Shown here one piece after another: positions 14,736 to 33,543 of a stretch of 64,000 bases of DNA. Below the pieces are notes generated by a model that saw only the letters and a list, made by a program, of their open reading frames with translations, was not told where the DNA came from and made no database searches. The position numbers were made by a program, and so were the translations under genes. Within the stretch, counting starts at the first letter, position 1. Each line of letters begins with the position of its first letter. This stretch comes from Candidatus Omnitrophota bacterium (GTDB lineage: Bacteria > Omnitrophota > Gorgyraeia > 2-01-FULL-45-10), in NCBI GenBank assembly GCA_030695905.1, contig JAUYOL010000036.1:182814-246813 (forward strand). Reading direction: 5' to 3'.

Positions 14736-14740
14736 GATTA

Positions 14741-17443: not shown

Positions 17444-17798
17444 CTAAAGAGTCTCCTTTTAGTACGCTACTATTGCCATTGGCGTTAAGACTTTCCCACT
17501 CCTGTCTTATCTTGTTATACTCTTCTTCCTTGATCTTCAAAAAAAGGTGCATAAGCCGTATCCTCTCTTCCAGGCCTTTTTTGGTAAGGCTATACTGGAT
17601 CTTACTGATCTTCCCTGGGTTTTCGGAAAAACTTTTATATTTGACTATGCCCTTTTCGATGAGGGCATTGAGCAGATAATTCGTCTTACCGAGAGATATT
17701 CCAAGCTTATCTGAAATATTCCTCTGGGTAATGGCTGAATTACTGTCTATTTCCTTGATTATATGCAGAATTTCTTCTTTTGGGGGATGTTCATTCAT
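17427..17798 (-). CDS. MarR-family EPS-associated winged-helix transcriptional regulator
   Basis: 123 aa with the HTH segment ITQRNISDKLGISLGKTNYLLNALIEKGIV. The size, sequence pattern and location inside a polysaccharide locus match the MarR_EPS-type regulators. A near-palindrome TTGATATAATCAA lies in its upstream region at ~17840. Confidence 0.6.
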   Translation of the reverse strand: MNEHPPKEEILHIIKEIDSNSAITQRNISDKLGISLGKTNYLLNALIEKGIVKYKSFSENPGKISKIQYSLTKKGLEERIRLMHLFLKIKEEEYNKIRQEWESLNANGNSSVLKGDSLDEKEG

Positions 17799-17890
17799 TG
17801 AACAAAAATTCTACCAGAAGGACTTGATATAATCAACAAAAATCGCTTGTGGCGTTGGTGTCCAGAAGCATCTTTTACTGCTGTATTCAC

Positions 17891-18937
17891 CTATATTTGT
17901 GCCAAATACCAGTTCTTTTGTATATTATAGGTCGGGTGCATCATAAAATTCCGCCTGACATCGCTTATAGAGGCCCCTACCATGCCGTTAATAGAATAAT
18001 CCCCCAGCCCTTCTTCATGCAGATAATAGAGATAACCTATATCCTCTGGCTCAAGCCCCATTAATCTGGCCCCGACCCCGTCCGCTTTCAGGGCATCCGT
18101 TGACGCGACCGCCGCATCCAGCTTTACAGGAAAACCGTCTACGGGGCCGTTTCCGTCCATGCAATCAAACGCGTCCAATACCACTAGATCCGGCCAGGTA
18201 AGTTTGGCCAGATCGACAATATTTCTATGAATAACCTTTGTAGATCTCATGTACGCAACCGACTTTTTAAAAATAAGGTTTACCAGGCCCGGAAGCCTTC
18301 TCCTCATCCAAGCTATGGCAGACGTGGGAATATATGTGAATATAGTTTTGGCGTCGGGCGCACTTGGAGTACGGAGGCCGTGAAGCAGCGACTTGTCTTC
18401 CTGCCTGATCAGGCCCGCCATATTTTTTATACCGAATGTAGCTATGGCGTAGTTATGAGTTTTGGGCACCCCTATGGATATCCTGAAGTCAAAGGCGGAT
18501 AAACGCTTTACGATCCGTATCTTTTCAGGGCCCGCTATAGACATGATCATATGCTCGGAATAATCCGCATGATCTTCAATGCATTCTATACTTACGTTAT
18601 CGTATTTTTTTATGAGGTCAAAATACCCGAATTTTCTGAAGACTTCATTCGTGGATGTCTTTTCATAATGCGCACTTCCGCTCCCTTCCAGGATAACGAA
18701 CCGGCTGTGGCGCAGCTCGGCAAAATTACCCAGCAAGAAATCTATTACGGCCTCTACCGCCTCCCGGTGCGTATTAGCAGTTTTATTGTTGGTAGCAGTC
18801 AGATTGGGCTTTATTAGTATCTCTTTTTTACTGCGGATCACTTCCAGGTCCGGCTTTATGAGGTCCAGGGATTTTTGTATATTGCCATACCTGCCGGAGC
18901 CTTTGACTAAAGAAACTTTTTTAATATAGTTATCCAT
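17891..18937 (-). CDS. DUF362 domain protein
   Basis: The N-terminus (…KVSLVKGSGRYGNIQKSLDLI…KEILIKPNLTATNN…) matches the conserved start of the DUF362 family. About 350 aa. Start set at the internal Met (MDNYIKK). Confidence 0.5.
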   Translation of the reverse strand: MDNYIKKVSLVKGSGRYGNIQKSLDLIKPDLEVIRSKKEILIKPNLTATNNKTANTHREAVEAVIDFLLGNFAELRHSRFVILEGSGSAHYEKTSTNEVFRKFGYFDLIKKYDNVSIECIEDHADYSEHMIMSIAGPEKIRIVKRLSAFDFRISIGVPKTHNYAIATFGIKNMAGLIRQEDKSLLHGLRTPSAPDAKTIFTYIPTSAIAWMRRRLPGLVNLIFKKSVAYMRSTKVIHRNIVDLAKLTWPDLVVLDAFDCMDGNGPVDGFPVKLDAAVASTDALKADGVGARLMGLEPEDIGYLYYLHEEGLGDYSINGMVGASISDVRRNFMMHPTYNIQKNWYLAQI

Positions 18938-19424
18938 TGCCGGGCCTATTCTTTTGCACTCGTTCAATCATTAAACACCATCCATAGGCTGAAATTATGG
19001 CTATAAAGGGCATCATCGGCACTCGCAGCCTTTCGCAGACATCCCACATAAGGGCGCTTAATAAAGCTATTTTCTGATCTATCTCCAATGTCGCTCTATA
19101 AACTATGAAAGCCATAATAAAAGTCATCGCTATCTGCAAAAGGACTACTCCGTCGAGCGGGATCTTCAATATACCGTTAAGAATGGCGAGAAATAGCGGA
19201 TAACCGGGGGTTCTGAACATTTCATATGTCAATGCTCCATTTTCATTTTGCGTAGCAAAAACACCCTTAGTTGTAAGCATATCAGATAATTTCAAATATC
19301 CATAAGAGTCGGGTAATAATTTTCCTTGTGGGGCATGAATTGCGGCAAACAGGAAGAGCGAAAGCTTTATTACTAAAGCTATAGCAATGATAATAAGAAT
19401 GTAGCGCTTATTTTGAGCCTTCAA
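18930..19424 (-). pseudogene. Truncated N-terminal fragment of a GT-C (PMT_2/ArnT-like) glycosyltransferase
   Basis: 164 aa with TM1 and a first-loop motif YEMFRTPGYPLFLAIL characteristic of GT family 39/83. Full-length members are 450-600 aa. The ORF ends where the DUF362 gene begins. Confidence 0.4.
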
Positions 19425-20514
19425 TGATTTTTTCTACTATAAGTTTCAGCTCTTTGGTTCCCAACTCAGGATATATCGGTATGGAAAAAGTTTGGGAGGC
19501 GGCGGATTCAGATTCAGGAATAGCGCCTTTTTTGTAATTTAGGTCTTTGTAACACTCTTGCAGGTGTAACGGAACAGGATAGTAGGTCCGGGCCTCAATA
19601 CCTGCGTCATTAAGAAATTTTGCTAATTTCTCTGGACTTGGCTTGACCCGCAAAGTGTAAAGATGGTAAGTATGCGTATTATAAGAAGGTGCAAATGGTG
19701 CCATAATAGCGCTTATATCTTTCAAATGATCATTATAGTACTGGGCGGCCCTGCGTCGGCCATCCAGCCACTTGTTCAAATATTTGAGCTTTATCCTTAG
19801 AATAGCCGCCTGGAGAGCATCGAGGCGGGAATTAGCGCCTATCTCTGAATGAATATATCTTATCGTGCTGCCATGAACGCGCAGCATCTTTATTTTGTCG
19901 GCAATTGCCTTATTATTTGTGACAACCATGCCGCCGTCACCGAAACCGCCCAAATTCTTGCTCGGGAAAAAACTTAAAGCTCCCGCATCGCCCATTGATC
20001 CAGCCTGCCTGTCTTTATAGGTTGCGCCCATGGCTTGAGCCGTATCTTCGATCACTTTTAAATTATTGATCTTAGCGATTTCTAAAATTCTGTCCATATC
20101 GGCACATTGGCCAAACAAGTGCACAGGGATAATCGCCTTAGTGCGTTTGGTTATCTTATCTTCTATCAATTCCGGATTAATGCAGTAAGTCTTCGGGTCG
20201 ATATCAACAAATATCGGCTTCGCGCCCAATATAGACACCGATTCGGCCGTAGCGAAAAATGTAAATGGAGTTGTAATGACTTCATCGCCGGGGCCTATGC
20301 CAAGAGCCTTGAGCGATAATATAAGCGCATCCGTGCCTGAGGCAACGCCTACCGCGTATTTTGTCCCGCAATATACGGCAACTTCGCGTTCGAATGCCTC
20401 CACCTCCGGCCCAAGTATAAAATGCTGGCTTCCGACAACTTTCATTAAAGCTGCGTCTATCTCATTTTTTATGCTCTTATACTGCGCTTGCAAATCTAAA
20501 ATAGGTATCTTCAT
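19408..20514 (-). CDS. DegT/DnrJ/EryC1/StrS-family PLP-dependent NDP-sugar aminotransferase (ArnB/WecE-like)
   Basis: 368 aa. The GTDALILSLKALGIGPGDEVITTPFTFFAT…IPVHLFGQCADMD…FFPSKNLGGFGDGGMV pattern, with the Lys-bearing SFFPSKNLG region, is a classic sugar aminotransferase. Confidence 0.9.
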   Translation of the reverse strand: MKIPILDLQAQYKSIKNEIDAALMKVVGSQHFILGPEVEAFEREVAVYCGTKYAVGVASGTDALILSLKALGIGPGDEVITTPFTFFATAESVSILGAKPIFVDIDPKTYCINPELIEDKITKRTKAIIPVHLFGQCADMDRILEIAKINNLKVIEDTAQAMGATYKDRQAGSMGDAGALSFFPSKNLGGFGDGGMVVTNNKAIADKIKMLRVHGSTIRYIHSEIGANSRLDALQAAILRIKLKYLNKWLDGRRRAAQYYNDHLKDISAIMAPFAPSYNTHTYHLYTLRVKPSPEKLAKFLNDAGIEARTYYPVPLHLQECYKDLNYKKGAIPESESAASQTFSIPIYPELGTKELKLIVEKIIEGSK

Positions 20515-21500
20515 TACTCTCCCCTAAAATAACTTATCGTCTTCTTCAATCCAGTTTCGAGATCTACTTTTGGTTTCCAATTGAGAAATTTTCTCGCTTT
20601 AGTTATATTTGGCCGCCTTACCTTGGGGTCATCCGTTGGCAGCCCTTTAAACACAATCTTGCTCTTGCTTCCGGTCAGCTTGATTATGGTTTTAGCAAGA
20701 TCTATCAACTTCATCTCATTAGGGTTGCCTATATTCACAGGATCATGTTCTTCTGACATCAATAACCTGTATATGCCATCCACGAGATCCGAAACATAAC
20801 AAAAACTTCGCGTCTGAGACCCGGTGCCATAAACCGTAATAGCCTTATTATTCAAAGCCTGATTTATAAAATTAGGTATTGCCCTGCCGTCTTTTTCCCT
20901 CATTCTCACGCCATAGGTATTGAATATACGGACTATCTTTGTATCTACCTTATGAACACGATGGTAAGCCATGGTAATTGCCTCCGCGAATCTCTTGGCT
21001 TCATCGTAAACTCCCCGCGGCCCGACGCTATTAACATTTCCCCAGTAGCTTTCGGGCTGAGGATTCACAAGAGGATCCCCATATACTTCGCTTGTGGATG
21101 CCAGTAAAAATCTTGCTTTTTTCACCTTGGCTACACCTAAGGCATTGTGAGTCCCCAAAGAACCGACTTTAAGTGTTTGGATAGGATACTTAAGATAGTC
21201 TATAGGGCTTGCGGGAGAGGCGAAGTGCAGGACATAATGAACAGGCCCTTTGATTTTAATGGGCTCGGAAATATTATGTTTCATGAATCTGAAATTTCTG
21301 TCTTTAAGCAGATGAGATATGTTGGAGAGCTTGCCGGTTATGAGATTATCAACACAGATGACGTTGTAGCTATTTTTGTTAGAGACAGTCTCCTTCAACG
21401 AGTATTCAACTTTTTGGAGACAGTCTCTTCCTAAAAATAATTCGCATAAATGCGAACCTATAAATCCTGCTCCGCCGGTAATTAAAACTGTTTTTCTCAT
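20514..21500 (-). CDS. UDP-glucuronate decarboxylase-family SDR (UXS / ArnA C-terminal-domain-like)
   Basis: [16 protein letters not shown]…[12 protein letters not shown]…YDEAKR is the UXS/ArnA-decarboxylase signature. It has a ~15 aa insertion after the first Rossmann strand. Confidence 0.8.
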
Positions 21501-22471
21501 GCAACGCTTTCTTTAGAGACAGTCCCATTCTGGGACAGTCTCTTCAACTTGAACCAATCTATCGTTGACTTAAGCCCCTCTTTAAATCCCACTATCTTTT
21601 TCACACCTAACATATTTTTCATCTTACTGATGTCGGCGTAGGTTTTTCTGACATCACCTTGTCTTTTCGGCCCATATACAGGTTTAAGTTTTAATCCCAA
21701 TATTTTATTTGTTTCTCTTATTATATCCAGTATAGATGTAGTGGACCCACATGCTATATTAAAAACCTCTCCTGATATTTTCGGAACAATGCATGCTCTC
21801 AAATTCGCCTCAACCACATTTGCAACATAAGTAAAGTCCCGCGACTGTTTACCGTCCCATTCCGCTATAGGAGATTCGCTTCCCAGCATCTTGGCAAGAA
21901 TAGCGGGTATGGCCGCGGAATATTTGCTTTCGGGGTTTTGTCTGGGGCCAAAGACATTAAAATATCTTAAGCTGACAGTCTCTAATCCGAAGGTCTTCGC
22001 GAATGTAACGCAATAATGTTCCGCCGCCAATTTTGAAACGCCATATGGTGATATGGGCACGGGAAGGTCTGTTTCTTTTTGAGGAAAGCTCTTGGCGTCT
22101 CCATATGCTGAACTCGAAGAAGCGTAGACCACTCTTTTTATTCCGGCTTCCTTAGCCACAACTAAAATATTCAGTGTTCCAAATACGTTTGTATCATTTG
22201 TGGCAATTGGATCTTCAACCGATTTGGCGACAGAGCGCAACGCCGCCTGGTGAATGACATAATCCATGCCCTTCATCGCATCCTTAACTACAGCCGCATC
22301 CCTGATATCGCCTTCGATCAGCTCGATTTTATTTAAAAAAGTTTTAAGATTATCACGATTACCGGTAATAAAGCTATCCAGAACGCGGACTCTTTCCCCG
22401 CGCTTAACCAACTCTTCGGTAATATTCGATCCGATAAATCCCGCTCCGCCTGTAACAAGATATTTAGCCAT
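21497..22471 (-). CDS. UDP-GlcNAc / UDP-GlcNAcA C4-epimerase (WbpP/TviC-like extended SDR)
   Basis: [20 protein letters not shown]…[10 protein letters not shown]…[10 protein letters not shown], 324 aa. Sits immediately downstream of the TviB-like dehydrogenase, as in tviBC/wbpOP pairs. Confidence 0.75.
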
Positions 22472-22475
22472 ATTT

Positions 22476-25244
22476 TTATAGTTTTATGATATTTGACCTA
22501 TTTTTGATACCCTTCAACGCGTTTCTGGTATCGATAATAACTTTTGAATTCTTCGCTATAAACTGGTAGTCAATATTAGAGTGATCGGTTACTATAACAA
22601 CGCAATCGGCCGAAGCCAACACCTCTTTGGTAAATTTCGCGCGTTTCAAATTAATACCGTCTACTTTAATATATGGAAAATAAGGATCATAATATAAAAC
22701 GTTCGCCTCATTCCTTTCCAATAGTTCGATTATCTCAAACGCCGGTGACTCTCTCAAATCCTGGACGTCTTTCTTATATGCCACTCCTATAAGCAATACC
22801 TTGGCACCTTTAAGCGCTTTCTTCTTTTTATTAAGCGCGCTGATTATCTTTTCCACTACATAGTGCGGCATGCGGCCGTTTATTTCCGACGCTAAATCTA
22901 TAAATCTCGCTTCAAAACCATGCGCTCTTGCCTTCCACGATAGATACAAAGGATCTATGGGAATGCAATTATGAGTAAGTATGCCATATGATGTTACAAA
23001 AGTATTGGTATCCCGCACTTCCATAGAATAGACTTTGCTTGCTTTAGAGTAGGATATGTCTTTAATTTTTGTAGTCGCGAAATTTGTATATAAATTGAAG
23101 TTTTTGTTTGGTATTATTTTCCTGCTTTTTTCAAGATAAGACTTAATTCGCCCCGCTTTCTCTCCAAGAAACATGCTTCTCAATCTTTTAAGTTGACCGT
23201 ACCCGAACATGTTTAACAGATTTTTTCTTTTCTTGAAGCTTGGCATAAAGCCTAAATCCTGTAGTAGAAGCACCATTTGATTAAACAGGGTATCGCTTAT
23301 TGTGAAATAATTTACTGTGGCCGAATTAAAATTATGCTTATATATTTTCCCGTTCTTACAATAGGCTCTCTTTCCGCTAGAACTGTCTACGCCGCCGTCT
23401 CCTCTCAATAACCCCATAATTAGATGAAGCTTCAATTTTTTCGGCAAGAGCATAAATCGCTGAGGAATTTTCATAGAGTAAGAATCAACGCCGCAGCCCA
23501 GTATATCTCTTAAGAGGTAACCGAAAATATTTGACGATATCTTAATGCAGGTGCTGTTCCATTTCTTTGAATTATATTCTGAGTAACAGATACCCTTCTC
23601 TTTAAGGAACAACCTGATATCGTTAAGGTATTGCGATTCATTCCTGTTAAATGTTAATCTCGTTCTTATAGATTTATCTACCGTTATACAGCCTTCGCTT
23701 AAATAATAACCGATAAACCTTAGGAAATCTTCGTCAACATCCATAACCGCCGGAATGCTTTGGTATGAAGGCCCGCGACCTGTACAAAGCATGAGATCTT
23801 CTCTATTAACCGGCCAGCTCATCTTGCCTTCCAGCGATAGATATACATTTAACGGAAGATAGCCGGCTTTAAAATAGTCATCCAGACTGGCTTTTGCGCC
23901 GGGTGCCGACCTTTGCTTTATTTCTTTCTTAAAATCGCGCCATTCAAAATATGTTCCCTTGACTCTTATACCGCTTACAAAATTCCGCTGTTTTAGAAAT
24001 TCTATCAAATCTATCCATGAGTCCTCTTTTTTGACAGATTCTTCCGGAAGATTGAGGATAACAGGTATCTCATCGTTTAATTCAAGCTCGTCGGCAAATT
24101 TGACGCCCAATTGACCGCCCTTGTTAACTATCATCGGATGCTTGGATGTAACGGATATAGCGCGGCTATCCTGCGTCTTAATATTGATTATATCCCCATT
24201 ATAGGGCCTTTCCGAAAGCATGCTGACTTCTTTAAAGCATGATCCATTGCCTATCGGGTCATAAGATAGCACCTTTTTAGAAATAGGCCTTATAAATGTT
24301 GCCCCTTTAACTCTATGCAGTCTCGAATTTGGGTTTTTCCCCGATTCGCTGACAAAATCAGATATCTTTATAGGCCTGAATCCCGAGGCTTCCTTATCCT
24401 TCACGAATATGTATTCATCCTTTGTTAAACAGTGGCCGCCTACGCCGGGCCCTGGATAGAATGGCATAAAGCCATACGGTTTCGTCTTTGCCGCTTCGAT
24501 GACTTCCCAAATGTTGATGCCGAGCTTATCACACATCAACGCAAGCTCGTTCACAAGGCCCAAATTAACTATCCTGAATGTATTTTCAAGCAGCTTAGTC
24601 ATCTCTGCTGCCTTAGCCGAAGAGACAGGCATGACTTTATCTATTATTTGATTATATAAAATGGTTCCGATTTGTGTGGAGCTTTCGGATATGCCGCCCA
24701 AAACCTTAGGAATATTTGTGACAAAATATTTCGCGTTACCCGGATCTATCCTCTCCGGCGAAAATGCCAGATAAAAATCTTTGCATTCTTTAAGCCCTGT
24801 CGATTCTAAAATAGGCAACATAACTTCTTCGGTAGTGCCGGGATATGTGGTAGACTCCAATACGACTATCTGTCCGTGCTTCATGTGCTTCTTTATCATC
24901 TGGGTCGCGGAAACTATAAAAGAAACATCCGGCTCTTTGGTCTTTAATAAAGGTGTCGGCACGCATACTATAAAAGCGTCCAATCTTTTGATATTACTCA
25001 AATCCGTTGTTACAGTCAGCGAACCGTCTTTCTGTAACGCGACTATCTCCCGGGGCTTTAAGTCCAATATATAAGACTGCCCTTTCTTTAATCTTGCGAC
25101 ACGGTCCTTGTCGACATCTATGCCCCACACCTTAAACCCTTTTTTGGCAAATGCCATGGCAAGCGGCAGCCCTACATAGCCTAAGCCTATCACGCCTATC
25201 TTTGCTTTCTTGGTAAGAATTTTATTCTTCAAGGTATCAAACAT
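22476..25244 (-). CDS. UDP-N-acetyl-D-glucosamine 6-dehydrogenase-like (TviB/WbpO/Cap5O family) interrupted by an intein
   Basis: N-extein (271 aa) and C-extein (163 aa) together form a normal ~434 aa TviB-type dehydrogenase: KIGVIGLGYVGLPLAMAFA … GPGVGGH|CIPIDP … LLIGVAYKKDVQDLRESP. The 922 aa ORF carries a 488 aa insertion exactly before the catalytic Cys. Confidence 0.85.
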   Translation of the reverse strand: MFDTLKNKILTKKAKIGVIGLGYVGLPLAMAFAKKGFKVWGIDVDKDRVARLKKGQSYILDLKPREIVALQKDGSLTVTTDLSNIKRLDAFIVCVPTPLLKTKEPDVSFIVSATQMIKKHMKHGQIVVLESTTYPGTTEEVMLPILESTGLKECKDFYLAFSPERIDPGNAKYFVTNIPKVLGGISESSTQIGTILYNQIIDKVMPVSSAKAAEMTKLLENTFRIVNLGLVNELALMCDKLGINIWEVIEAAKTKPYGFMPFYPGPGVGGHCLTKDEYIFVKDKEASGFRPIKISDFVSESGKNPNSRLHRVKGATFIRPISKKVLSYDPIGNGSCFKEVSMLSERPYNGDIINIKTQDSRAISVTSKHPMIVNKGGQLGVKFADELELNDEIPVILNLPEESVKKEDSWIDLIEFLKQRNFVSGIRVKGTYFEWRDFKKEIKQRSAPGAKASLDDYFKAGYLPLNVYLSLEGKMSWPVNREDLMLCTGRGPSYQSIPAVMDVDEDFLRFIGYYLSEGCITVDKSIRTRLTFNRNESQYLNDIRLFLKEKGICYSEYNSKKWNSTCIKISSNIFGYLLRDILGCGVDSYSMKIPQRFMLLPKKLKLHLIMGLLRGDGGVDSSSGKRAYCKNGKIYKHNFNSATVNYFTISDTLFNQMVLLLQDLGFMPSFKKRKNLLNMFGYGQLKRLRSMFLGEKAGRIKSYLEKSRKIIPNKNFNLYTNFATTKIKDISYSKASKVYSMEVRDTNTFVTSYGILTHNCIPIDPLYLSWKARAHGFEARFIDLASEINGRMPHYVVEKIISALNKKKKALKGAKVLLIGVAYKKDVQDLRESPAFEIIELLERNEANVLYYDPYFPYIKVDGINLKRAKFTKEVLASADCVVIVTDHSNIDYQFIAKNSKVIIDTRNALKGIKNRSNIIKL
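22968..24431 (-). mobile_element. Intein with LAGLIDADG homing-endonuclease domain inserted at the catalytic Cys of the UDP-GlcNAc dehydrogenase
   Basis: Begins with Cys (CLTKDEYIF, block A). Has a block B TxxH (ISVTSKHPMIV) and two LAGLIDADG-like motifs (FLRFIGYYLSEGCI and LIMGLLRGDGGV). Ends …VYSMEVRDTNTFVTSYGILTHN (blocks F/G, terminal HN), followed by extein Cys+1 (CIPIDP). Excising it leaves an in-frame GVGGHCIPIDP active site. Confidence 0.8.
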
Positions 25245-26145
25245 AATCTTTTAATGCCTCCTGCCAATTGCGCATCCTATAACCTGTAAATTTCATGAAC
25301 TTTGAATTATCCAATATCGACATCGCCGGACGTTTCGCGGGGGAGTTTAATTCTTTTGAAGATATCGGAAGAACTCTCGTCTTTGATCCCGCCAATTTCA
25401 ATATTTTTCTGGCATAACTAAACCACGAAACGCTTCCCGAATTCGAAACATGATAAACACCAGCCCACCGCTGCGGTGTAGTCAGCGAAAACAACTTGTC
25501 ATCGCGGCGGTGCAACAATACGTGTATCGCTTTGCTTAAATCCTTCGTGTACGTCGGCGATCCCACCTGGTCATCAACGACTTTCAAGGCCTTTTCACTC
25601 TTTGCCTTCGCAATAATAGTATCCACAAAATTTTTGCCATGCTTACCATAAAGCCAACTGGTGCGAAGAATAAAATATTTTTTAAGCGTATTTCTTATAG
25701 ATTCTTCGCCTTTCAGCTTTGAATCTCCATATATGCTTAAGGGGTTTACCTTGTCCGTTTCTTTATATAGATTTTTCTTTTTACCGTCGAATACGAAATC
25801 GGTGCTGATGTATATTAAAACGGCGTCCGCCTCTTTACAGGCCAACGCGACATTTTTTGCACCTTCGGCGTTTACCTTATACGCCTTTTTCGGATTAAGC
25901 TCGCAGCCATCGACATCCGTCATCGCCGCTGTGTGTATAATAATATCGGGATGAAGCTTATTCATAACCTTGGAAATGCTACGTTTATCGGTTATGTCGC
26001 ACCTTGTGAAGCTGTAAGCTGTAAGCTTTAAGCTATAAGCTAAATCCGCCCCATACACTTGATAGTCTTTTTTCAGCTCCTGACAAAGATCGGTCCCTAG
26101 CATTCCGCTCGAGCCTGTAACTAATATTTTATATCTTTTCGGCAT
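25237..26145 (-). CDS. rfbD: dTDP-4-dehydrorhamnose reductase
   Basis: ILVTGSSGMLG…YGDSKLKGE…RTSWLYG…DQVGSPTYTKDLS are the hallmark RmlD motifs. 302 aa. Confidence 0.9.
   Translation of the reverse strand: MPKRYKILVTGSSGMLGTDLCQELKKDYQVYGADLAYSLKLTAYSFTRCDITDKRSISKVMNKLHPDIIIHTAAMTDVDGCELNPKKAYKVNAEGAKNVALACKEADAVLIYISTDFVFDGKKKNLYKETDKVNPLSIYGDSKLKGEESIRNTLKKYFILRTSWLYGKHGKNFVDTIIAKAKSEKALKVVDDQVGSPTYTKDLSKAIHVLLHRRDDKLFSLTTPQRWAGVYHVSNSGSVSWFSYARKILKLAGSKTRVLPISSKELNSPAKRPAMSILDNSKFMKFTGYRMRNWQEALKDYV
26007..26043. repeat. Imperfect tandem heptanucleotide repeat (NNTAAGC x5) inside rfbD
   Basis: gtgaagc tgtaagc tgtaagc tttaagc tataagc read directly. It encodes an insertion-like LAYSLKLTAYSF segment near the RmlD N-terminus. 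Confidence 0.5.
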
Positions 26146-27101
26146 TTAATTAATTTCTGCCACCAGGCTGTGTTCTTCTTGTACCACTCTATAGTAAGTT
26201 CAAGCGCGTATTTAAAATCATGCTTTGGTTTCCAACCGAGCGCTTTTAGCTTCGTTATATCAAGCGCGTACCTCTTATCATGGCCGGGCCTGTCTTTGAC
26301 ATACTCTATCATGCTTTCATCTTTTCCTAAAAGCGCAAGCATCGCGTGCGTCAATTCGATATTTGTAGTCTCGCCGCCGACACCTATATTATAAATTTCT
26401 CCGACTTTCCCCTTATGCATGACAACATCTATGGCCTCGCAATTATCCACTACATAGAGCCAGTCCCGCACATTCATCCCGTCGGCATATAAAGGAATCT
26501 TCTTATCCTGCAATAGATTCGTTACAAACAGAGGTATTACTTTTTCCGGATACTGGTACGGCCCGAAATTATTAGAGCTTCTCGTTATGATCACCGGCAA
26601 GCCATAAGTAACAAAATAGGACCTTGCTAATAAGTCCGCGCCGGCTTTACTCGCTGAATATGGGCTGTTGGGCTCCAAAGGATCCGTCTCTTTAGAATAA
26701 CCTTTGGGAATACTTCCATATACCTCATCGGTAGAGATCTGAATATACAATTCCGCCCCGACTTTCTTTACCATTTCCAATAAAGTATATGTACCAAATA
26801 CATTCGTCTTGATAAAGACCGAAGGGTCTTTTATCGACCTGTCCACATGTGTTTCTGCCGCGAAATTTACTACGCAATCGCTGCCTTTAACCAGCTTTTC
26901 AACGACTTTTGCGTCTGTAATGTCACCCTTTACGAATTTATATCGCTTATTCTTTTTAATGTCTTTCAGGTTTTCGAGATTGCCGCAATAGGTGAGATTA
27001 TCAATATTGGTAATACGATAGTCCTCGTATTTACCTAACATATAACGTATGAAGTTTGAACCGATAAATCCGGCTCCGCCAGTCACAAGTAGTTTTTTCA
27101 T
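26121..27101 (-). CDS. rfbB: dTDP-glucose 4,6-dehydratase
   Basis: [20 protein letters not shown]…STDEVYG…YSASKAGADLL…DGMNVRDWLYV is the RmlB signature. Start set at the internal MKKLL (the ORF track extends 23 codons further upstream into rfbA). Confidence 0.9.
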   Translation of the reverse strand: MKKLLVTGGAGFIGSNFIRYMLGKYEDYRITNIDNLTYCGNLENLKDIKKNKRYKFVKGDITDAKVVEKLVKGSDCVVNFAAETHVDRSIKDPSVFIKTNVFGTYTLLEMVKKVGAELYIQISTDEVYGSIPKGYSKETDPLEPNSPYSASKAGADLLARSYFVTYGLPVIITRSSNNFGPYQYPEKVIPLFVTNLLQDKKIPLYADGMNVRDWLYVVDNCEAIDVVMHKGKVGEIYNIGVGGETTNIELTHAMLALLGKDESMIEYVKDRPGHDKRYALDITKLKALGWKPKHDFKYALELTIEWYKKNTAWWQKLIKCRKDIKY

Positions 27102-27826
27102 TTGGTCAATTTCTTCGCTACTAATATATTCGCCCTTAACAGTGAATCGAAAGTTCCCGAATCCGTCCACCAGCCGTCGAGAATATTGTAAGTAAGTTCG
27201 CCGCGCCTTATATATTCATTATTAACATCAGTTATCTCGAGCTCGCCGCGCCTGGACGGCTTCAGTGTCTTAGCTATCTCAAATACTTTTGAATCATACA
27301 TATAGATACCGGTAATGGCGTAATCGGATTTGGGCTTTTTGGGCTTTTCCTCTATAGACACTACATTCTTACCCCTAAACTCGGCGACTCCGAATCTCTC
27401 CGGATCCTCAACCTTCTTCAAGAGTATCTTCGCGCCCTTCGGCTGTTTTCTAAAATCTTCTACGGCCTTTTTTATACCCTTTTCGATTATATTGTCACCC
27501 AGGATCACCACTATCTTGTCATTGTCGGCAAAGTGTTCGGCAAGTTTCAGCGCCTCGGCTATCCCGCCCTCGCCTTCTTGATAAGTGTAATTTATATGCT
27601 TCAGGCCGAAATCCTTGCCATTACCGAGAAGGCGCAGAAATTCTCCCGCATGATTTCCGCCGGTCACTATCAATATATCCTTAATACCGGCATCGACGAG
27701 CGTCTGTATGGGATAATAGATCATCGGCTTATTAAAAACAGGCAGTAGATGCTTATTGGAGATCCTCGTCAAAGGATAGAGCCGCTTTCCCAAGCCCCCG
27801 GCTAAGATTACGCCTTTCAATCCCAT
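27098..27826 (-). CDS. rfbA: Glucose-1-phosphate thymidylyltransferase (short form)
   Basis: MGLKGVILAGGLGKRLYPLTRISNKHLLPVFNKPMIYYPIQTLVDAGIKDILIV…EGGIAEAL; 242 aa. Confidence 0.85.
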   Translation of the reverse strand: MGLKGVILAGGLGKRLYPLTRISNKHLLPVFNKPMIYYPIQTLVDAGIKDILIVTGGNHAGEFLRLLGNGKDFGLKHINYTYQEGEGGIAEALKLAEHFADNDKIVVILGDNIIEKGIKKAVEDFRKQPKGAKILLKKVEDPERFGVAEFRGKNVVSIEEKPKKPKSDYAITGIYMYDSKVFEIAKTLKPSRRGELEITDVNNEYIRRGELTYNILDGWWTDSGTFDSLLRANILVAKKLTK

Positions 27827-27829
27827 GTA

Positions 27830-28276
27830 TTACTTTCTCCAGTCGTAGTTAATATCATTATCATAAGCATCCAAACGCTCTTCATCCGGTTTTTTGTAAT
27901 TATAAGGAAGCGTAGGAGTATTGATAACTATAGACTCGCAATCTGCTATGCCCTTAAATCCGTGGTAAACCATTTTGGGGATAGTAACGAGTATCGGGTC
28001 ATCTGTGGATAATATGAATTCATTAACTTCTTTATAGGTAGGCGATTTTTCCCGCGCGTCGTATAACGCAAGTCTTATCTTGCCGTGCACACAGGCAAAA
28101 TTATCATTCTGTTTCTGATGAAAATGCCACGCCTTTACCACGCCCGGATAAGTAGTCGTCATATATACTTGCCCGAATTTCTTGAAGACTTTGTCGTCGC
28201 AGCGCAAGATTTCCATAAGCCTGCCGCGCTTATCCGGGATAATTTTTAATTTTTTAACTTTAACGCCTTTAATCAT
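27830..28276 (-). CDS. rfbC: dTDP-4-dehydrorhamnose 3,5-epimerase (short RmlC-family cupin)
   Basis: IIPDKRGRLMEI…KAWHFHQKQ…LALYDAREKSPTY…IPKMVYHGFKG, 148 aa. Sits directly upstream of rfbA-B-D. Confidence 0.7.
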   Translation of the reverse strand: MIKGVKVKKLKIIPDKRGRLMEILRCDDKVFKKFGQVYMTTTYPGVVKAWHFHQKQNDNFACVHGKIRLALYDAREKSPTYKEVNEFILSTDDPILVTIPKMVYHGFKGIADCESIVINTPTLPYNYKKPDEERLDAYDNDINYDWRK

Positions 28277-29570
28277 GGCCCCTGCCTATCCCCTCGTATC
28301 TAAATCCAAGCTTCTTCATCTGGGCCGGATTATAAATATTTCTTCCGTCAACTATAACAGGCTGTCTCATTATTTTCTTTATCTTCTTAAAGTCCAACTC
28401 CTTAAATTCATTCCATTCCGTAGCCACAATAATACAATCGCTGTCTTTAGCGGCCTGGTAAGCGTCTTTGCAGAATTCAACGCTCGCCTTCAACCGCTCT
28501 TTGGCCTTAGCCATCGCGACAGGATCATACACTTTAACGCGCACACCTTCTTTGAGAAGCGCCTCTATGATCTCCATGGCAGGAGCTTCTCTTAAATCGT
28601 CCGTCCCCGGTTTAAAAGACAACCCTAAAACACCGACTGTTTTTTTAGGCAGGTTCCATAATAAAGCTTCTATCTTCTTTATCGCCAGCCTCTTCTGCTC
28701 CCTGTTTACATTTTGAACCTCTTTTAGTATGCCGAAATCATAACCTATCTTTCCGGCTATGTGAACAAACGCGTCGAGATCCTTCGGGAAGCATGATCCG
28801 CCAAAGCCTATCCCAGCATTTAAAAAATCTTTCGATATCCTTTTGTCGAGCCCCATGCCGCGCGCGACATCCACGATATCCGCGCCGACCTTATCACAGA
28901 TATTGGCTACAGAGTTTATGAAGGATATCTTTGTCGCAAGAAATGAATTTGAGGCGTGTTTTATCAGTTCCGCGCTCTTTATATTTGTAACGACTATCGG
29001 CGCCTTGAGAGGCTTGTATAATTCGGTAAGAATATCCGCGGCCTTTTTAGACTTGACCCCAACGACAACCCTGTCGGGATTCATGAAATCTTCGATAGCG
29101 GTCCCCTCTTTTAAAAATTCGGGGTTGGACACTACATCGAATTTTATCTTGCGCTTATTGAATATATTTATGGTATGCTCGACCCACTCGCCTGTATTTA
29201 CCGGGACGGTGGACTTATCCACAATCAGCTTATAAGAAGACATCGAAAGAGCTATCTCTCGCGCCACATTTTCGACATATGTCATATCCGCGTCGCCGTT
29301 ATCCTTGGGCGGGGTCGGCACACAGACGAAGATCACTTCAGACTTTTTTACCCCATCTTTTAAACGGCTGGTAAAAGTGATTCGGCCCTCTTTAACATTT
29401 CGCTTAACAAGTTCTTCAAGGCCGGGCTCGTAAATAGGCATTATGCCTTTTTTTAGCTTGGAGATCTTGCTTTCGTTATTATCAACACATATAACATCAT
29501 TGCCAAGATCCGCAAAGCAAGCGCCTGTGACCAAACCTACATAGCCTGAACCTACAATCGTTATATTCAT
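28269..29570 (-). CDS. ugd: UDP-glucose 6-dehydrogenase
   Basis: MNITIVGSGYVGLVTGACFADLGNDV…GFGGSCFPKD (catalytic Cys)…GLSFKPGTDDLREAP; 433 aa. Confidence 0.9.
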   Translation of the reverse strand: MNITIVGSGYVGLVTGACFADLGNDVICVDNNESKISKLKKGIMPIYEPGLEELVKRNVKEGRITFTSRLKDGVKKSEVIFVCVPTPPKDNGDADMTYVENVAREIALSMSSYKLIVDKSTVPVNTGEWVEHTINIFNKRKIKFDVVSNPEFLKEGTAIEDFMNPDRVVVGVKSKKAADILTELYKPLKAPIVVTNIKSAELIKHASNSFLATKISFINSVANICDKVGADIVDVARGMGLDKRISKDFLNAGIGFGGSCFPKDLDAFVHIAGKIGYDFGILKEVQNVNREQKRLAIKKIEALLWNLPKKTVGVLGLSFKPGTDDLREAPAMEIIEALLKEGVRVKVYDPVAMAKAKERLKASVEFCKDAYQAAKDSDCIIVATEWNEFKELDFKKIKKIMRQPVIVDGRNIYNPAQMKKLGFRYEGIGRGHD

Positions 29571-29648
29571 ATCGTAACCCCTATATTATAAGCTAAATAT
29601 TATAGCAAGAAATGTACGGTAGGTCTATAGAAAAAACTAGATTTTACG

Positions 29649-31928
29649 CTAATAGCCTGCGGAACGTCCGGCAGAAAGCCTCTGACGCTCTATAAAACCG
29701 GCATCGCCAGGTTGACCAGCCCTTGTTCTGGAATAGGCCCTACCAACTCCAAGCGGCATTTTAGGAAATGCCTTGAGACGCAACGATACCCAAAATGTCT
29801 GGGTTGAGATCGTTTTATTGTCCTCATAAGGCCTATAATCATAGGTAAACTCTAATATCCAACAGTGCAGATCTCTTGAAAGGGTGTACTGATGTTCATC
29901 TATATATCCTTTGTCCATATTAAAACGCCAATAAACCCGCGCTTTCCATTTCTCGTTAAACCTGTATATGGCATCGGTAGTTAGATAATTGACTAAATTA
30001 CCATTTGTGTCCGGGTCGACGGGTATGTCAGAATTAAATGAGTGCTCATATCTATACCCAAAAGCAAGCGACCTATCTTCTTCCTTGCCCCCGACAAAGT
30101 CTACGCTCGCAGAATCGGGCAGGCCATACTTTGTATTAATATTCATCTTTGCAAGTGTATATAGCCAAGGATAGGGCGTAAGCTCCAACTGCATAAATAC
30201 GTATTGAAATTTTTGGTCTTTAAAATCAGAGTCATCATTAAACGCGAAGACGCCCTTTTTGAGCCTGAACTGATAATCTGTCCTTATAATGTAGTCCACA
30301 AGATCGACAGACACCCCGTTTCTTTTTGTCTGAAGTTTATTTTCCACCTGGAAGACGATGTTATTCTGCTCTTTTATCGCGTCAATAGCATCAAACTGCG
30401 TAAGATTATCCATGCTGACCGTGGGCTGATGGGTATAGAAGTAGCTCACGGTCGGAGTAATTACATGCCTCAGTTTATTTATGTCCAGATCGAGCGCATT
30501 GGTATTGATGTCGTATATTTTGTACAATTTCATGGAGCTGTCGAAACCAGCGTCAAATACACCTCTTATAAAATTCGTCTGGCCGTACTTGCCTCTTGAA
30601 TAAAATGTCTGCCTCGTTCCGGCGAATGGTGTAACATAGAGCGATCTTAAGTATGGTATGGGTTTGGTATTATATAAAAGTTTATTATAAGTATCTACTC
30701 TTATGACATTAAGATCTTTGTACTGGCTCGTTTCGGAATGAGGAAAGGTGTGGTTCATATATGTAGGCGTAAAACTTGCGTTATAGTATAATGGCGAGCT
30801 TCCGCCATTGTACTTTATATTATACTGCGGTATGTTGACATTAAATTCGGGCAATATTTCGACGACATCATAGTATTTGTCCATTCGCTTGCGTACTAAA
30901 AATTCCGTAGTATAACTTTCCTTTGAGGTAATAAATGAGATATAATTATCCGGCACAGGATGCTCTTCCCACTCATTGTAGAAATAATATTTCACCATCC
31001 TGTCGTCACGGACCTTCTCAAGCTCCATAGTCATTAAGGTATCGTCCAGGACCTGCCATTTATGCCTTATCTGTAATCTATATTTTCCTTCTTCACGCGT
31101 TATAGGCTTGTATGAAAGATACTCATTATTCTCATCGGCATAATAAAAATTGGCTATGCCTTCACCCAGGCCTTCAAGTTTGTAGGAGTTATCTATGCCG
31201 ACGGCTATGCCGTTCTTCGTCCTGTAATCGAACCTATACCTGCCCTTAAAAATTTCACTGTAATCATATTTCATGGACATAAGCGCGTAATAGCCCCAGT
31301 CCCTGTCATGGCCCGGCATTATGGTTATATGAGCCGATTGTTCTTTTATGGGTTGGTAATAATAAGGCAGCCACATAATGGGGCAATTGCCGACATACGC
31401 GACTATATTCTTCGCGATAACTTTATCTTCCAGGTATATCTCTACCTTTTTAGCCTCTATCCTGTAATGCGGTTTTTCCAGGTCGCAGGTAGTCATATAA
31501 CCTTTTTCGATGCCTACCTGGCTCTCCCCAACCTTATCTATCTTCTGCCACTTACCGTAGAATGGGACATAATTTATATAAGCATCTATCGCGGTGCCGG
31601 TCCTCTTGTCAAAATTGTAATTTATTTTGTCACCGGTAAAATAAGCGTCTTTCTGCGTTATCTTGACATTGCCTTCGGCTATAGCTTCGCGTGTATCTAA
31701 ATATACCGTGACCTTCTCGCAGGTTAGCCGCACGTCTTCATAGTCGATAAATATATTTCCCGTTCCCACGACTCTCTTCTGCTCGTGGAAATACTCGACC
31801 TTATCGCCGTTGACTACGATGGGCGCTTTTTGCTTAAAGTCCTGCGCGTAGGCAGTTGAGGATAGGACGATCAAGCTGTAGGCCATAAGCTGCAGGCTAT
31901 AAAATAAATATTTATTTCTTCGGTACAC
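29649..31928 (-). CDS. lptD: LPS-assembly outer-membrane protein LptD (OstA family)
   Basis: Signal peptide (…LSSTAYAQ). N-terminal OstA/LptD_N beta-jellyroll ([39 protein letters not shown]…AEGNVKI). Long C-terminal Tyr/Asn-rich beta-barrel region. 759 aa. Confidence 0.8.
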
Positions 31929-33521: not shown

Positions 33522-33543
33522 AATAATTGTGTTATTATACTAT

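What the first reader, a model, noticed from the sequence alone, without database searches (positions are those of the whole stretch)
22476..25244. LAGLIDADG intein precisely at the catalytic cysteine of a TviB/WbpO-type UDP-GlcNAc 6-dehydrogenase
The 922 aa ORF resolves into a 271 aa N-extein and a 163 aa C-extein. Joined, they reconstitute a canonical ~434 aa dehydrogenase with the active-site string GVGGH-C-IPIDP. The 488 aa insert (nt 22968..24431) has all intein hallmarks: N-terminal Cys, block B TxxH, two LAGLIDADG-like motifs (FIGYYLSEG and GLLRGDGG), and a C-terminal …YGILTHN followed by Cys+1. The enzyme therefore needs protein splicing to be made. Because the +1 nucleophile for splicing is the enzyme's own catalytic Cys, the intein sits in a position that point mutation can hardly remove. 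Inteins in nucleotide-sugar dehydrogenases are known from a few archaea, but one embedded in a bacterial surface-glycan locus next to a TviC-like epimerase is uncommon. The endonuclease domain also makes this a mobile element.
Basis: partly seen in the sequence, partly recalled or inferred. Interest (0 to 1): 0.7.

Follow-up and report, generated by a model that had tools for sequence, protein, structure and literature searches.

The report
Homing intein splitting a sugar dehydrogenase
A surface-sugar enzyme gene in an uncultured Omnitrophota bacterium is interrupted, exactly before its catalytic cysteine, by a self-splicing mobile protein element (an intein with a homing endonuclease); the call is correct, but this element is common in metagenomes and of a kind already known from archaea.

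Summary
ORF 22476..25244 (minus strand, 922 aa) splits into a 271-aa N-extein, a 488-aa intein (22968..24431) and a 163-aa C-extein. Intein and LAGLIDADG profiles pass their curated cut-offs. The joined exteins match the nucleotide-sugar dehydrogenase model end to end. An AlphaFold model of the insert (pLDDT 89) matches solved intein endonucleases such as PI-TkoII and PI-PfuI.

The host is an Omnitrophota MAG, and the exact protein is already in NCBI. The element is not rare. At least 118 distinct homologs carry it at the same site. It occurs in MAGs labelled as five bacterial phyla, DPANN archaea and two IMG/VR contigs. Homologous inteins sit at the equivalent Cys of TviB-like and Ugd-type dehydrogenases, including a Methanothermococcus protein, which is the known archaeal "UDP GD" type.

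The closest orthologs (up to 88% identity, same operon) lack the intein. Intein and extein trees conflict (997 to 1000 of 1000 bootstraps). The endonuclease acidic residues are 97–98% conserved. Together this points to a homing element.

"TviB/WbpO-type" is not met (249 vs 592 bits). Orthologs are named UDP-GlcNAc dehydrogenase by automated annotation. Verdict: real, well called, a new member of a known kind.

The parts
22476..25244 (-). Precursor gene: 922-aa nucleotide-sugar dehydrogenase interrupted by an intein (stop codon 22476..22478).
   Evidence: It is identical to NCBI protein P0001, 'MAG: nucleotide sugar dehydrogenase [Candidatus Omnitrophota bacterium]'.
24432..25244 (-). N-extein, aa 1-271: the NAD-binding domain and most of the central domain. 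It ends ...PGPGVGGH.
   Evidence: Pfam PF03721 and PF00984; junction.
22968..24431 (-). Intein, 488 aa (55.9 kDa): a Hint splicing domain with a nested LAGLIDADG homing endonuclease.
   Evidence: Pfam and NCBIfam intein models pass their cut-offs. A family HMM scores 702 bits. The AF2 model has pLDDT 89.2, and the top Foldseek hits are PI-TkoII, TliVMA and PI-PfuI.
24429..24431 (-). Intein Cys1 (block A), the nucleophile for the first N-S acyl shift.
   Evidence: Invariant in 118 of 118 homologs.
24138..24149 (-). Block B, T-S-K-H (intein T95..H98).
   Evidence: H is present in 118 of 118 and T in 115 of 118 homologs. TIGR01445 match.
23688..23717 (-). First LAGLIDADG motif, FIGYYLSEGC. The catalytic acidic residue is E246 (nt 23694..23696).
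   Evidence: E is present in 116 of 118 homologs. Pfam LAGLIDADG_3 match.
23391..23414 (-). Second LAGLIDADG motif, GLLRGDGG. The catalytic acidic residue is D345 (nt 23397..23399).
   Evidence: D is present in 115 of 118 homologs.
22968..23033 (-). Blocks F and G, VYSMEVRDTNTFVTSYGILTHN, ending in the His-Asn where Asn cyclises.
   Evidence: V467, Y468, S469, E471, H487 and N488 are invariant in 118 of 118 homologs. TIGR01443 match.
22479..22967 (-). C-extein, aa 760-922. It starts with Cys+1 (22965..22967), which is both the splicing nucleophile and the enzyme's catalytic thiol. The general-base Asp is 4 residues on (22953..22955). The UDP-binding domain follows.
   Evidence: Pfam PF03720. 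The roles of the Cys and Asp in the GG(H/S)CxxxD motif come from PMC4794789.
25237..26145 (-). Upstream rmlD gene. Its ORF overlaps the dehydrogenase start codon by 8 nt, which suggests one operon (rmlA 27098..27826, rmlB 26121..27170).
   Evidence: TIGR01214 scores 333 bits against a cut-off of 224; coordinates.
21497..22471 (-). Downstream SDR epimerase, 4 nt after the dehydrogenase stop. TviC is its closest model, but it scores below the cut-off. A second SDR (20514..21500) and a DegT-type aminotransferase (19408..20514) follow.
   Evidence: TviC 236 bits against a cut-off of 760. The same gene order is found in the intein-free ortholog locus L021.

Best explanation
This is a canonical (class 1) protein-splicing intein with a nested double-motif LAGLIDADG homing endonuclease. 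It is inserted between His271 and the catalytic Cys of a nucleotide-sugar dehydrogenase, probably a UDP-GlcNAc 6-dehydrogenase, in a surface-glycan operon (rmlA-rmlB-rmlD-DH-epimerase-SDR-aminotransferase) of an Omnitrophota bacterium.

The gene is translated as a 104-kDa precursor. In it, the active-site motif GGH-C-x-x-x-D is split: Gly-Gly-His lies on the N-extein, and the Cys nucleophile and Asp general base lie on the C-extein. The precursor should therefore be inactive (inferred).

The inferred splicing path follows the standard class 1 scheme. Cys1 forms a thioester at the N-junction, helped by block B Thr/His. Cys+1 attacks it to form the branched intermediate. Asn488 cyclises, helped by His487, and releases the 55.9-kDa intein. 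An S-N shift then yields the 48.4-kDa enzyme with the native sequence GGHCIPIDP.

The freed intein is expected to act as a site-specific DNA endonuclease. It would cut intein-free alleles at the joined sequence (about ...GGCGGCCAC|TGCATTCCC...) and copy itself in by repair (homing). Family-wide evidence supports such movement on an evolutionary timescale.

Shown here: the anatomy, the family memberships, the fold, the conservation, the presence/absence polymorphism and the intein-extein incongruence. Inferred: splicing, the inactive precursor, and nuclease activity with its target.
For: Boundaries and motifs. Curated intein, LAGLIDADG and dehydrogenase profiles all pass their cut-offs, and the spliced extein is contiguous over TIGR03026 positions 2-413 of 413.

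118 homologs carry the insert at the identical site. Cys1, block B His, S469, E471, His-Asn and Cys+1 are invariant. The endonuclease residues E246, D345 and K297 are 97-98% conserved.

The AF2 model (pLDDT 89.2, pTM 0.89) best matches PI-TkoII (E = 5.5e-26), TliVMA, PI-PfuI, PhoVMA and PI-SceI.

The closest extein relatives are intein-free 434-aa proteins with a contiguous GGHCIPxDPxY motif, at 68-88% identity. One of them (L021) lies in the same operon, with neighbours 67-86% identical.

Quartet test on P0001-P0004: the extein topology (1,3)(2,4) appears in 1000 of 1000 bootstraps and the intein topology (1,2)(3,4) in 997 of 1000. Sliding-window DNA identity gives the same mosaic.

Mini-intein derivatives at the same site (182-222 aa) show the expected decay stage of a homing cycle.

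The Cys in GGHC is the covalent catalyst and the Asp four residues on is the general base in this enzyme family: PMC4794789.
Against: There is no experimental evidence for splicing or cleavage of this protein or of any close relative.

Block F carries Ser where I recall many class 1 inteins having Asp (from memory, not tested here). The Ser is invariant in 118 of 118 family members. The window's intein has Asn where 72 of 118 relatives have His (block F position 476); 45 of 118 share the Asn, so it is a normal variant.

The nearest intein relatives are only 70-79% identical in protein and at most about 82% in DNA. Transfer is therefore ancient rather than demonstrably ongoing.

The intein's GC and GC3 (0.385 and 0.414) are not foreign to the locus, which fits long residence.

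The sequence is from a metagenome-assembled genome.
Confidence: 0.85

Rival explanations
1. The intein splices, but its endonuclease is no longer active. The element would then be inherited vertically and persist only because imprecise loss would destroy the active site.
For: No near-identical intein was found in a divergent extein. The best intein relative is 79% identical. The intein's composition is ameliorated to the locus. Extein and intein divergences are correlated overall (Pearson 0.80). HE-less mini-inteins exist in the family.
Against: The two catalytic acidic residues and K297 are kept in 97-98% of 118 diverged homologs, along with many other endonuclease-domain positions. An inert domain would not be expected to show this. 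Intein and extein topologies conflict strongly. Some pairs have inteins far more alike than their exteins, for example 91% against 73%. Intein-free alleles are interleaved among the closest relatives.
Confidence: 0.15
2. The intein has been co-opted as a post-translational switch. Because Cys1 and the catalytic Cys+1 lie next to each other in the precursor, oxidising conditions or metals could trap the precursor, for example through a Cys1-Cys+1 disulfide. That would hold back UDP-sugar-acid synthesis until conditions allow splicing.
For: Both junction residues are Cys in every family member. The insertion splits the catalytic motif, so activity depends strictly on splicing. The element is retained across many lineages. 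[quoted passage not shown] A disulfide involving the catalytic Cys has been reported for Cap5O (PMC4794789).
Against: Nothing in the sequence is specific to regulation. Close orthologs in the same operon do without the intein. The distribution is patchy, as expected of a selfish element. Cys/Cys junctions are, to my knowledge, the commonest kind in inteins generally.
Confidence: 0.1
3. The insert is a decayed, non-splicing remnant or an assembly artefact, and the gene is a pseudogene. Its function would be covered by other dehydrogenases such as the Ugd paralog at 28269..29570.
For: A second nucleotide-sugar dehydrogenase is encoded 3 kb away. The sequence comes from a MAG.
Against: The reading frame is open over 922 codons, and every splicing residue is intact and invariant across 118 independent assemblies. 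The paralog belongs to a different subfamily, the Ugd/TuaD type with GGSCFPKD, and shares only 29 of 60 nt at the site. The same architecture appears in many independent samples and in MAGs labelled as several phyla.
Confidence: 0.03

Closest known systems
The archaeal 'UDP GD' intein: the UDP-glucose dehydrogenase intein listed in InBase. Novikova et al. 2016 count UDP-GlcDH (COG1004) inteins as 10 in Euryarchaeota.
   Same: The host superfamily is the same, and in the relative I could examine the insertion point is equivalent. Methanothermococcus sp. Ax23 WP_421077467.1 (P0301, 901 aa) reads GYGGS|C...(460-aa intein)...HN|CFPKD. Its intein is homologous to this one (E = 3e-34, 31% identity) and contains a LAGLIDADG endonuclease. 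The literature basis is.
   Different: The archaeal host is a Ugd-type enzyme (GGSC, CFPKD; TuaD and AglM are its best models). The window's host is a different subfamily (GGHC, CIPxDP) in a bacterium. I could not retrieve the M. jannaschii MJ1054 sequence itself. Its site identity is therefore inferred from the Methanococcales relative and from my recollection that its N-extein is about 260 aa.
Structurally characterised intein homing endonucleases: PI-TkoII (2cw7), PI-PfuI (1dq3), TliVMA and PhoVMA (7qss, 7qst), PI-SceI (1vde).
   Same: The architecture is the same: a Hint splicing domain interrupted by a two-motif LAGLIDADG endonuclease. Foldseek gives E = 5.5e-26 to 1e-10 at probability 1.0. 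phmmer also finds PI-PkoII directly (E = 1.5e-9).
   Different: Sequence identity is only 10-17%. The host proteins differ (DNA polymerase, RNR, V-ATPase). TM-scores of 0.5-0.6 indicate a different domain arrangement or extra elements.
Intein-free orthologs named UDP-N-acetyl-D-glucosamine dehydrogenase in Omnitrophica MAGs (for example P0122).
   Same: They are 68-88% identical to the spliced extein and exactly 434 aa long. The GGHCIPxDPxY motif is the same, and so is the operon.
   Different: They have no intein; they are the empty homing sites. Their name comes from automated annotation, not from an assay.
TviB / WbpO (Vi antigen and O6 O-antigen dehydrogenases) with TviC / WbpP epimerases.
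   Same: The enzyme superfamily is the same and the gene-pair logic is similar: a dehydrogenase followed by an SDR 4-epimerase-like gene. TviC is the best-scoring model for the neighbour.
   Different: The extein scores 249 bits against a TviB cut-off of 592, and the neighbour scores 236 bits against a TviC cut-off of 760. The motif after the Cys is CIPIDP here. The intein-bearing relative that is closest to TviB has CIGVDPYYL.

Membership tests
Canonical (class 1) intein | Cys, Ser or Thr nucleophile at intein position 1 | tested here: met
   Cys272 of the ORF. It is invariant in 118 of 118 homologs.
Canonical (class 1) intein | Block B TxxH motif | tested here: met
   T95-S-K-H98. H is present in 118 of 118 and T in 115 of 118 homologs. 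TIGR01445 scores 36.7 bits against a cut-off of 24.5.
Canonical (class 1) intein | C-terminal His-Asn followed by a Cys, Ser or Thr at +1 | tested here: met
   ...THN|C. H, N and C+1 are invariant. TIGR01443 is above its cut-off.
Canonical (class 1) intein | Hint fold | tested here: met
   Pfam Intein_splicing scores 45.5 bits against a cut-off of 35.8. The AF2 model matches mini-intein and full intein structures at probability 1.0.
Canonical (class 1) intein | The exteins join into a contiguous homolog of intein-free proteins | tested here: met
   TIGR03026 positions 2-413 of 413 are matched in one stretch. There are 120 intein-free 434-aa relatives at 68-88% identity.
Canonical (class 1) intein | Autocatalytic protein splicing | not testable with these tools
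   Needs expression and detection of the 48.4-kDa and 55.9-kDa products.
LAGLIDADG homing endonuclease (double-motif, intein-nested) | Two LAGLIDADG motifs, each ending in a catalytic acidic residue | tested here: met
   FIGYYLSEGC (E246) and GLLRGDGG (D345), 98% and 97% conserved. Pfam LAGLIDADG_3 scores 30.7 bits against a cut-off of 22.5.
LAGLIDADG homing endonuclease (double-motif, intein-nested) | LAGLIDADG alpha-beta-beta-alpha-beta-beta-alpha fold nested in the Hint domain | tested here: met
   Foldseek matches PI-TkoII, PI-PfuI, PI-SceI, I-Tsp061I, I-DmoI and I-SmaMI.
LAGLIDADG homing endonuclease (double-motif, intein-nested) | Evidence of mobility: a patchy distribution and a history discordant with the host gene | tested here: met
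   Intein-free alleles are interleaved among the closest exteins. Quartet incongruence is 1000 of 1000 against 997 of 1000.
LAGLIDADG homing endonuclease (double-motif, intein-nested) | Site-specific cleavage of the intein-free allele | not testable with these tools
   Candidate target sequences are given (window joined site and L021 empty site).
UDP-glucose/GDP-mannose dehydrogenase family (TIGR03026) | Three domains plus the GG(H/S)CxxxD catalytic motif | tested here: met
   PF03721, PF00984 and PF03720 are all above their cut-offs. TIGR03026 scores 466 bits against a cut-off of 190. The motif GGH-C-IPI-D is restored only after splicing.
TviB (NF011729 equivalog) | Score at or above the curated equivalog cut-off (592 bits) | tested here: not met
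   249 bits. The intein-free ortholog P0122 scores 253 bits. The CIGVDPYYL-type relative P0248 scores 417 bits with TviB as its top hit, still below the cut-off.
UDP-ManNAc dehydrogenase (WecC NF008286; archaeal NF040825) | Score at or above the curated equivalog cut-offs (459 and 750 bits) | tested here: not met
   279 and 311 bits. These are the best-ranked equivalogs, but both are well below their cut-offs.
UDP-GlcNAc 6-dehydrogenase of the WbpA kind (EC 1.1.1.136) | Orthology to a characterised UDP-GlcNAc 6-dehydrogenase, or a substrate assay | tested here: inconclusive
   NCBI and JGI name the intein-free orthologs 'UDP-N-acetyl-D-glucosamine dehydrogenase', but this is automated naming. 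None of the NCBIfam models that matched is a UDP-GlcNAc dehydrogenase of this kind, and no WbpA sequence was available to compare.
InBase 'UDP GD' intein allele | The same insertion point (before the catalytic Cys) and a homologous intein | tested here: met
   Met for a Methanococcales representative (P0301: GGS|C...HN|CFPKD, E = 3e-34). The M. jannaschii protein itself was not retrieved.
Bacterial intein-like (BIL) domain | A Hint domain in variable, non-conserved hosts, without a conserved +1 nucleophile or an endonuclease | tested here: not met
   This insert lies in the most conserved motif of a conserved enzyme. It has an invariant Cys+1 and a nested endonuclease.

The most novel reading that the evidence does not exclude
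One homing-intein lineage has colonised the catalytic-Cys codon across the whole nucleotide-sugar dehydrogenase superfamily (UDP-GlcNAc-type, TviB-type and Ugd-type hosts). It is found in MAGs labelled as at least five bacterial phyla, in archaea and in large IMG/VR contigs. In Omnitrophota it has been kept because it does something for the cell: it acts as a thiol/redox- or metal-gated switch that ties activation of surface-glycan precursor synthesis to splicing at the enzyme's own catalytic cysteine. That would make it a widespread bacterial intein outside the replication/nucleotide-metabolism niche with an adaptive role.
Probability: 0.1. Interest if true: 0.6.

Novelty: new member of a known kind. 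Interest (0 to 1): 0.3.

Why it matters
For annotation, this gene should be read as a 434-aa dehydrogenase plus a 488-aa intein, not as a 922-aa 'nucleotide sugar dehydrogenase'. The enzyme is made only after splicing.

For intein biology, the family offers a large natural data set. It includes occupied and empty sites in the same operon, mini-intein derivatives, and one intein lineage at the equivalent Cys of three paralogous enzyme subfamilies. The host is a cell-envelope gene, a class that the 2016 survey did not list among the top bacterial intein hosts. That makes it useful for studying homing cycles and target-site breadth, and as a possible source of a new meganuclease specificity and of splicing domains that tolerate a His(-1)/Cys(+1) junction.

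It does not change any established concept.

Tried and rejected
(1) Literature search for a description of this intein, or of the exact Mja UDP GD insertion site. I found only generic mentions (InBase lists a UDP-glucose dehydrogenase intein; Novikova 2016 counts 10 in Euryarchaeota). There was nothing on Omnitrophota and no site sequence. The supplements of Novikova 2016 are not held.

(2) The genome-contig scan was saturated at 600 rows by the extein pattern PGPGxGGHCL. Its 13 intein-bearing loci are therefore a lower bound. Six further loci (L014-L019) were intein-free false leads.

(3) tblastn of the intein against GenBank phages and PLSDB plasmids gave only distant intein fragments in phage portal and terminase genes, and nothing in plasmids. 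No vector for spread was identified.

(4) A foreign-DNA signature was rejected. The intein's GC and GC3 lie within the range of the neighbouring genes.

(5) A search for other inteins of this family in the window, using a family HMM against the six-frame translation, found none. There are also no tRNA or Rfam features in the window.

(6) I considered active-site mimicry by the intein N-terminus, because phmmer aligned CLTKDEYIF with CLPKDPYLL. I rejected it: position 5 is not conserved in the family.

(7) A co-conversion tract next to the junction: the 30 codons upstream are slightly more similar to the intein's closest relative (0.88 against 0.80). The region is too conserved to interpret.

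(8) Default blastn of the extein DNA against the empty-site ortholog gave no hit, so the comparison was done by codon position instead.


Full report
**1. The observation**

The ORF is real. It spans 22476..25244 on the minus strand, starts with ATG and encodes 922 aa.
- N-extein: aa 1-271 (nt 24432..25244), ending PGPGVGGH.
- Insert: aa 272-759 (488 aa, nt 22968..24431), running from CLTKDEY... to ...SYGILTHN.
- C-extein: aa 760-922 (163 aa, nt 22479..22967), beginning CIPIDPLY.

The insert alone passes the curated cut-offs of four models:
- Pfam Intein_splicing: 45.5 bits against 35.8.
- Pfam LAGLIDADG_3: 30.7 bits against 22.5.
- NCBIfam intein_Nterm: 36.7 bits against 24.5.
- NCBIfam intein_Cterm: 19.8 bits against 15.6.

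The in-silico spliced 434-aa protein matches the nucleotide-sugar dehydrogenase model TIGR03026 over positions 2-413 of 413 in a single stretch (E = 1e-139). In the unspliced ORF the same match is broken in two.

**2. What the insert is**

An alignment of 118 homologous inserts shows the pattern expected of a working intein with a working endonuclease. These positions are invariant:
- Cys1.
- The block B His (T95-x-x-H98; the Thr is present in 115 of 118).
- The block F core V-Y-S-x-E.
- The terminal His-Asn.
- Cys+1.

In the endonuclease, the two LAGLIDADG motifs (GYYLSEGC and GLLRGDG) keep their acidic residues in 116 and 115 of 118 sequences. A Lys at position 297 is kept in 116 of 118.

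Two departures from what I recall as the textbook consensus (recollection, not a test) are family traits rather than damage. Ser is invariant at a block F position where many class 1 inteins have Asp. Asn and His alternate at block F position 476 (45 against 72); the window has Asn.

An AlphaFold2 model built from a 17-sequence alignment is confident (mean pLDDT 89.2, pTM 0.89). Its best matches among solved structures are intein homing endonucleases: PI-TkoII (E = 5.5e-26), TliVMA, PI-PfuI, PhoVMA and PI-SceI. Mini-inteins and free-standing LAGLIDADG enzymes follow.

**3. Where it sits in the enzyme**

In this enzyme family the Cys of the GG(H/S)C motif is the covalent catalyst, forming the thiohemiacetal and thioester intermediates. 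It is Cys260 in the S. pyogenes enzyme and Cys258 in Cap5O. The Asp four residues on is the general base, and the His of 'GGHC' is a signature of the acetamido-sugar group (PMC4794789).

The intein lies between that His and that Cys. The N-extein therefore carries G-G-H, and the C-extein carries the nucleophile (22965..22967) and the base (22953..22955). That the precursor is inactive is an inference from this geometry.

**4. Organism and context**

The exact protein is on record as 'MAG: nucleotide sugar dehydrogenase [Candidatus Omnitrophota bacterium]' on a 252-kb contig. 'Bacterial' is therefore right.

The gene lies in a co-directional operon:
- rmlA (27098..27826).
- rmlB (26121..27170).
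- rmlD (25237..26145), which overlaps the dehydrogenase start by 8 nt.
- The dehydrogenase itself.
- An SDR epimerase (21497..22471) whose best model is TviC, at 236 bits against a cut-off of 760.
- A second SDR of the UXS/ArnA kind (20514..21500).
- A DegT/PseC-type aminotransferase (19408..20514).

A second dehydrogenase at 28269..29570 is of the Ugd/TuaD type and has no intein.

**5. Which dehydrogenase**

The extein does not reach any equivalog cut-off. It scores 311 bits against the archaeal UDP-ManNAc dehydrogenase model (cut-off 750), 279 against WecC (459) and 249 against TviB (592). 'TviB/WbpO-type' is thus a tested and unmet membership.

The intein-free orthologs are named 'UDP-N-acetyl-D-glucosamine dehydrogenase' by NCBI and JGI. 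An intein-bearing relative with a CIGVDPYYL C-extein is much closer to TviB (417 bits, top hit). That shows the window's enzyme (CIPIDP) belongs to a different subfamily.

**6. How common it is**

A search of 5.8 billion proteins returned 120 listed full-length homologs at 44-79% identity. In 118 of them I could locate the insert at the identical GGH|C...HN|C(I/L)PxDP site. Those that carry a source name are mostly Omnitrophota; others are labelled Planctomycetes and Dictyoglomus. Some are already annotated by JGI as 'UDP-N-acetyl-D-mannosaminuronate dehydrogenase/intein/homing endonuclease'.

- Full inteins in MAGs labelled Anaerolineales and Chloroflexi, Planctomycetota, Gemmatimonadota and several Acidobacteriota.
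- Mini-inteins in a Pyrinomonadaceae MAG (182 aa) and a Woesearchaeota archaeon (187 aa).

Two IMG/VR contigs of 340 and 442 kb also carry it.

At the 50%-cluster level the intein has 64 representative relatives at E <= 1e-30. Their flanks show the same lineage at the equivalent Cys of two more dehydrogenase subfamilies:
- xPGLVGGH|C...HN|CIGVDPYYL, a motif I recall as typical of TviB and WbpO; the one member I scored (P0248, from an 'archaeon') has TviB as its best model.
- GYGGS|C...HN|CFPKD (Ugd type), including WP_421077467.1 from Methanothermococcus sp. Ax23.

The Ugd-type allele is the euryarchaeal 'UDP-glucose dehydrogenase intein' kind already listed in InBase and counted by Novikova et al. 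2016 (10 in Euryarchaeota). Related inteins also occur in a protein named phosphoribosylformylglycinamidine synthase. The claim of rarity is therefore not supported. What is true is that the 2016 survey did not list this host among the top 15 bacterial intein hosts.

**7. Evidence for mobility**

- Ranked by extein identity to the window, one intein-bearing allele (P0003, 90%) comes first. About 18 intein-free 434-aa alleles follow (82-88%), and only then the next intein-bearing ones.
- One intein-free allele (L021) sits in the same operon, with neighbours 67-86% identical, so it is an orthologous empty site. Its DNA matches the window's joined site at 46 of 60 nt. The in-window Ugd paralog matches at 29 of 60.
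- For the four closest intein-bearing alleles, exteins group (P0001, P0003) in 1000 of 1000 bootstraps. Inteins group (P0001, P0002) in 997 of 1000. Sliding-window DNA identity shows the same switch inside the intein.
- Family-wide, extein and intein divergence correlate (r = 0.80). Several pairs nevertheless have inteins far more alike than their exteins, for example 91% against 73%.
- Mini-inteins represent endonuclease loss.

Together these fit the gain, fixation, decay and loss cycle of homing elements. The transfers visible here are old: DNA identity is at most about 82% within the intein, and the intein's GC content is not foreign. Current activity of this particular copy is therefore inferred, not shown.

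**8. Mechanism, with status**

Shown:
- The anatomy and family memberships.
- The fold.
- Conservation of all catalytic residues.
- Operon context.
- Empty-site orthologs.
- Discordant intein and extein histories.

Inferred from the established class 1 splicing scheme and from LAGLIDADG enzymology:
- An N-S shift at Cys1.
- Trans-thioesterification to Cys+1.
- Asn488 cyclisation.
- An S-N shift giving GGHCIPIDP.
- Release of a 55.9-kDa endonuclease that cuts intein-free alleles around ...GGCGGCCAC|TGCATTCCC... and is copied in by repair.

Predicted products are 48.4 and 55.9 kDa.

**9. Rivals**

- A splicing-only intein with a dead nuclease (0.15) is disfavoured by the conservation of the nuclease site and by the incongruence.
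- A co-opted redox or metal switch (0.10) is possible. It is compatible with the main explanation, but nothing specific supports it, and close orthologs do without the intein.
- A pseudogene or assembly artefact (0.03) is contradicted by the intact frame and by 118 independent assemblies.

**10. Verdict**

The finding is accurate and well delimited. It is an ordinary, if attractive, example of a known phenomenon. The protein is already in public databases, relatives are already machine-annotated as intein-containing, and the insertion point matches the known archaeal UDP-sugar dehydrogenase intein type.

Its modest added value has three parts: the breadth of the bacterial family, the same lineage at the catalytic Cys of three paralogous subfamilies, and clean occupied and empty ortholog pairs.

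Novelty: new member of a known kind. Interest: 0.3.

Noticed in passing
window 28269..29570 (-): A second nucleotide-sugar dehydrogenase of the Ugd/TuaD type (580 bits against a cut-off of 700; motif GFGGS-C-FPKD) lies 3 kb upstream and has no intein. Ugd-type alleles carrying a homologous intein at the same Cys exist elsewhere, for example in Methanothermococcus. Its site shares only 29 of 60 nt with the occupied gene's joined site.
   Followed up: partly
L021 689..1621 (intein-free ortholog locus, ENA ERZ27254845 k141_2781479): An extra 310-aa ORF with faint NUMOD3 and weak MTES_1575 Pfam hits sits between an rmlC-like gene and rmlA. It may be a free-standing homing-type endonuclease in the same glycan operon. 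It is absent from the window.
   Followed up: no
P0281, P0293, P0298, P0309, P0318 (about 1180-1260 aa; intein at about aa 195-640): Inteins related to this one (26-37% identity, E = 6e-57 to 2e-22) lie in a different host and end HN|C(V/I)GVPTVGGE. JGI names P0281 phosphoribosylformylglycinamidine synthase.
   Followed up: partly
L023 5001..6479 and L024 5001..6473 (IMG/VR UViG_3300012931_000759, 340 kb; UViG_3300029288_005873, 442 kb): Two very large contigs classed as viral carry a full same-site intein in a dehydrogenase with C-extein CIGLDPHY or CISLDPHY. I did not examine whether these are giant viruses or phages, or misbinned cellular DNA.
   Followed up: partly
L012 6001..6600; L013 2808..3419; P0118: Mini-inteins of 182, 187 and 222 aa occupy the identical site in a Pyrinomonadaceae MAG, a Woesearchaeota archaeon and an unnamed metagenome protein. 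These are endonuclease-loss derivatives.
   Followed up: partly
window 24393..24431 (-), intein residues 1-13: The intein N-terminus CLTKDEYIFV resembles the native post-Cys sequence of relatives (CLPKDPYLL). As a result, phmmer extends the extein alignment about 13 residues into the intein. Position 5 is not conserved in the family, so this is chance, but it could mislead automated boundary calls.
   Followed up: yes
window 26121..27170 (-) and 27098..27826 (-): The listed rmlB ORF starts at a GTG and overlaps rmlA by 73 nt. The TIGR01181 match begins at residue 26, so the true start is probably the internal ATG ([15 protein letters not shown]...).
   Followed up: no
window 1..64000: Nearly all ORFs of 150 aa or more are on the minus strand. 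No tRNA or Rfam feature is present in the 64 kb. The region reads as one long co-directional block that includes the envelope/glycan-biosynthesis operon.
   Followed up: no
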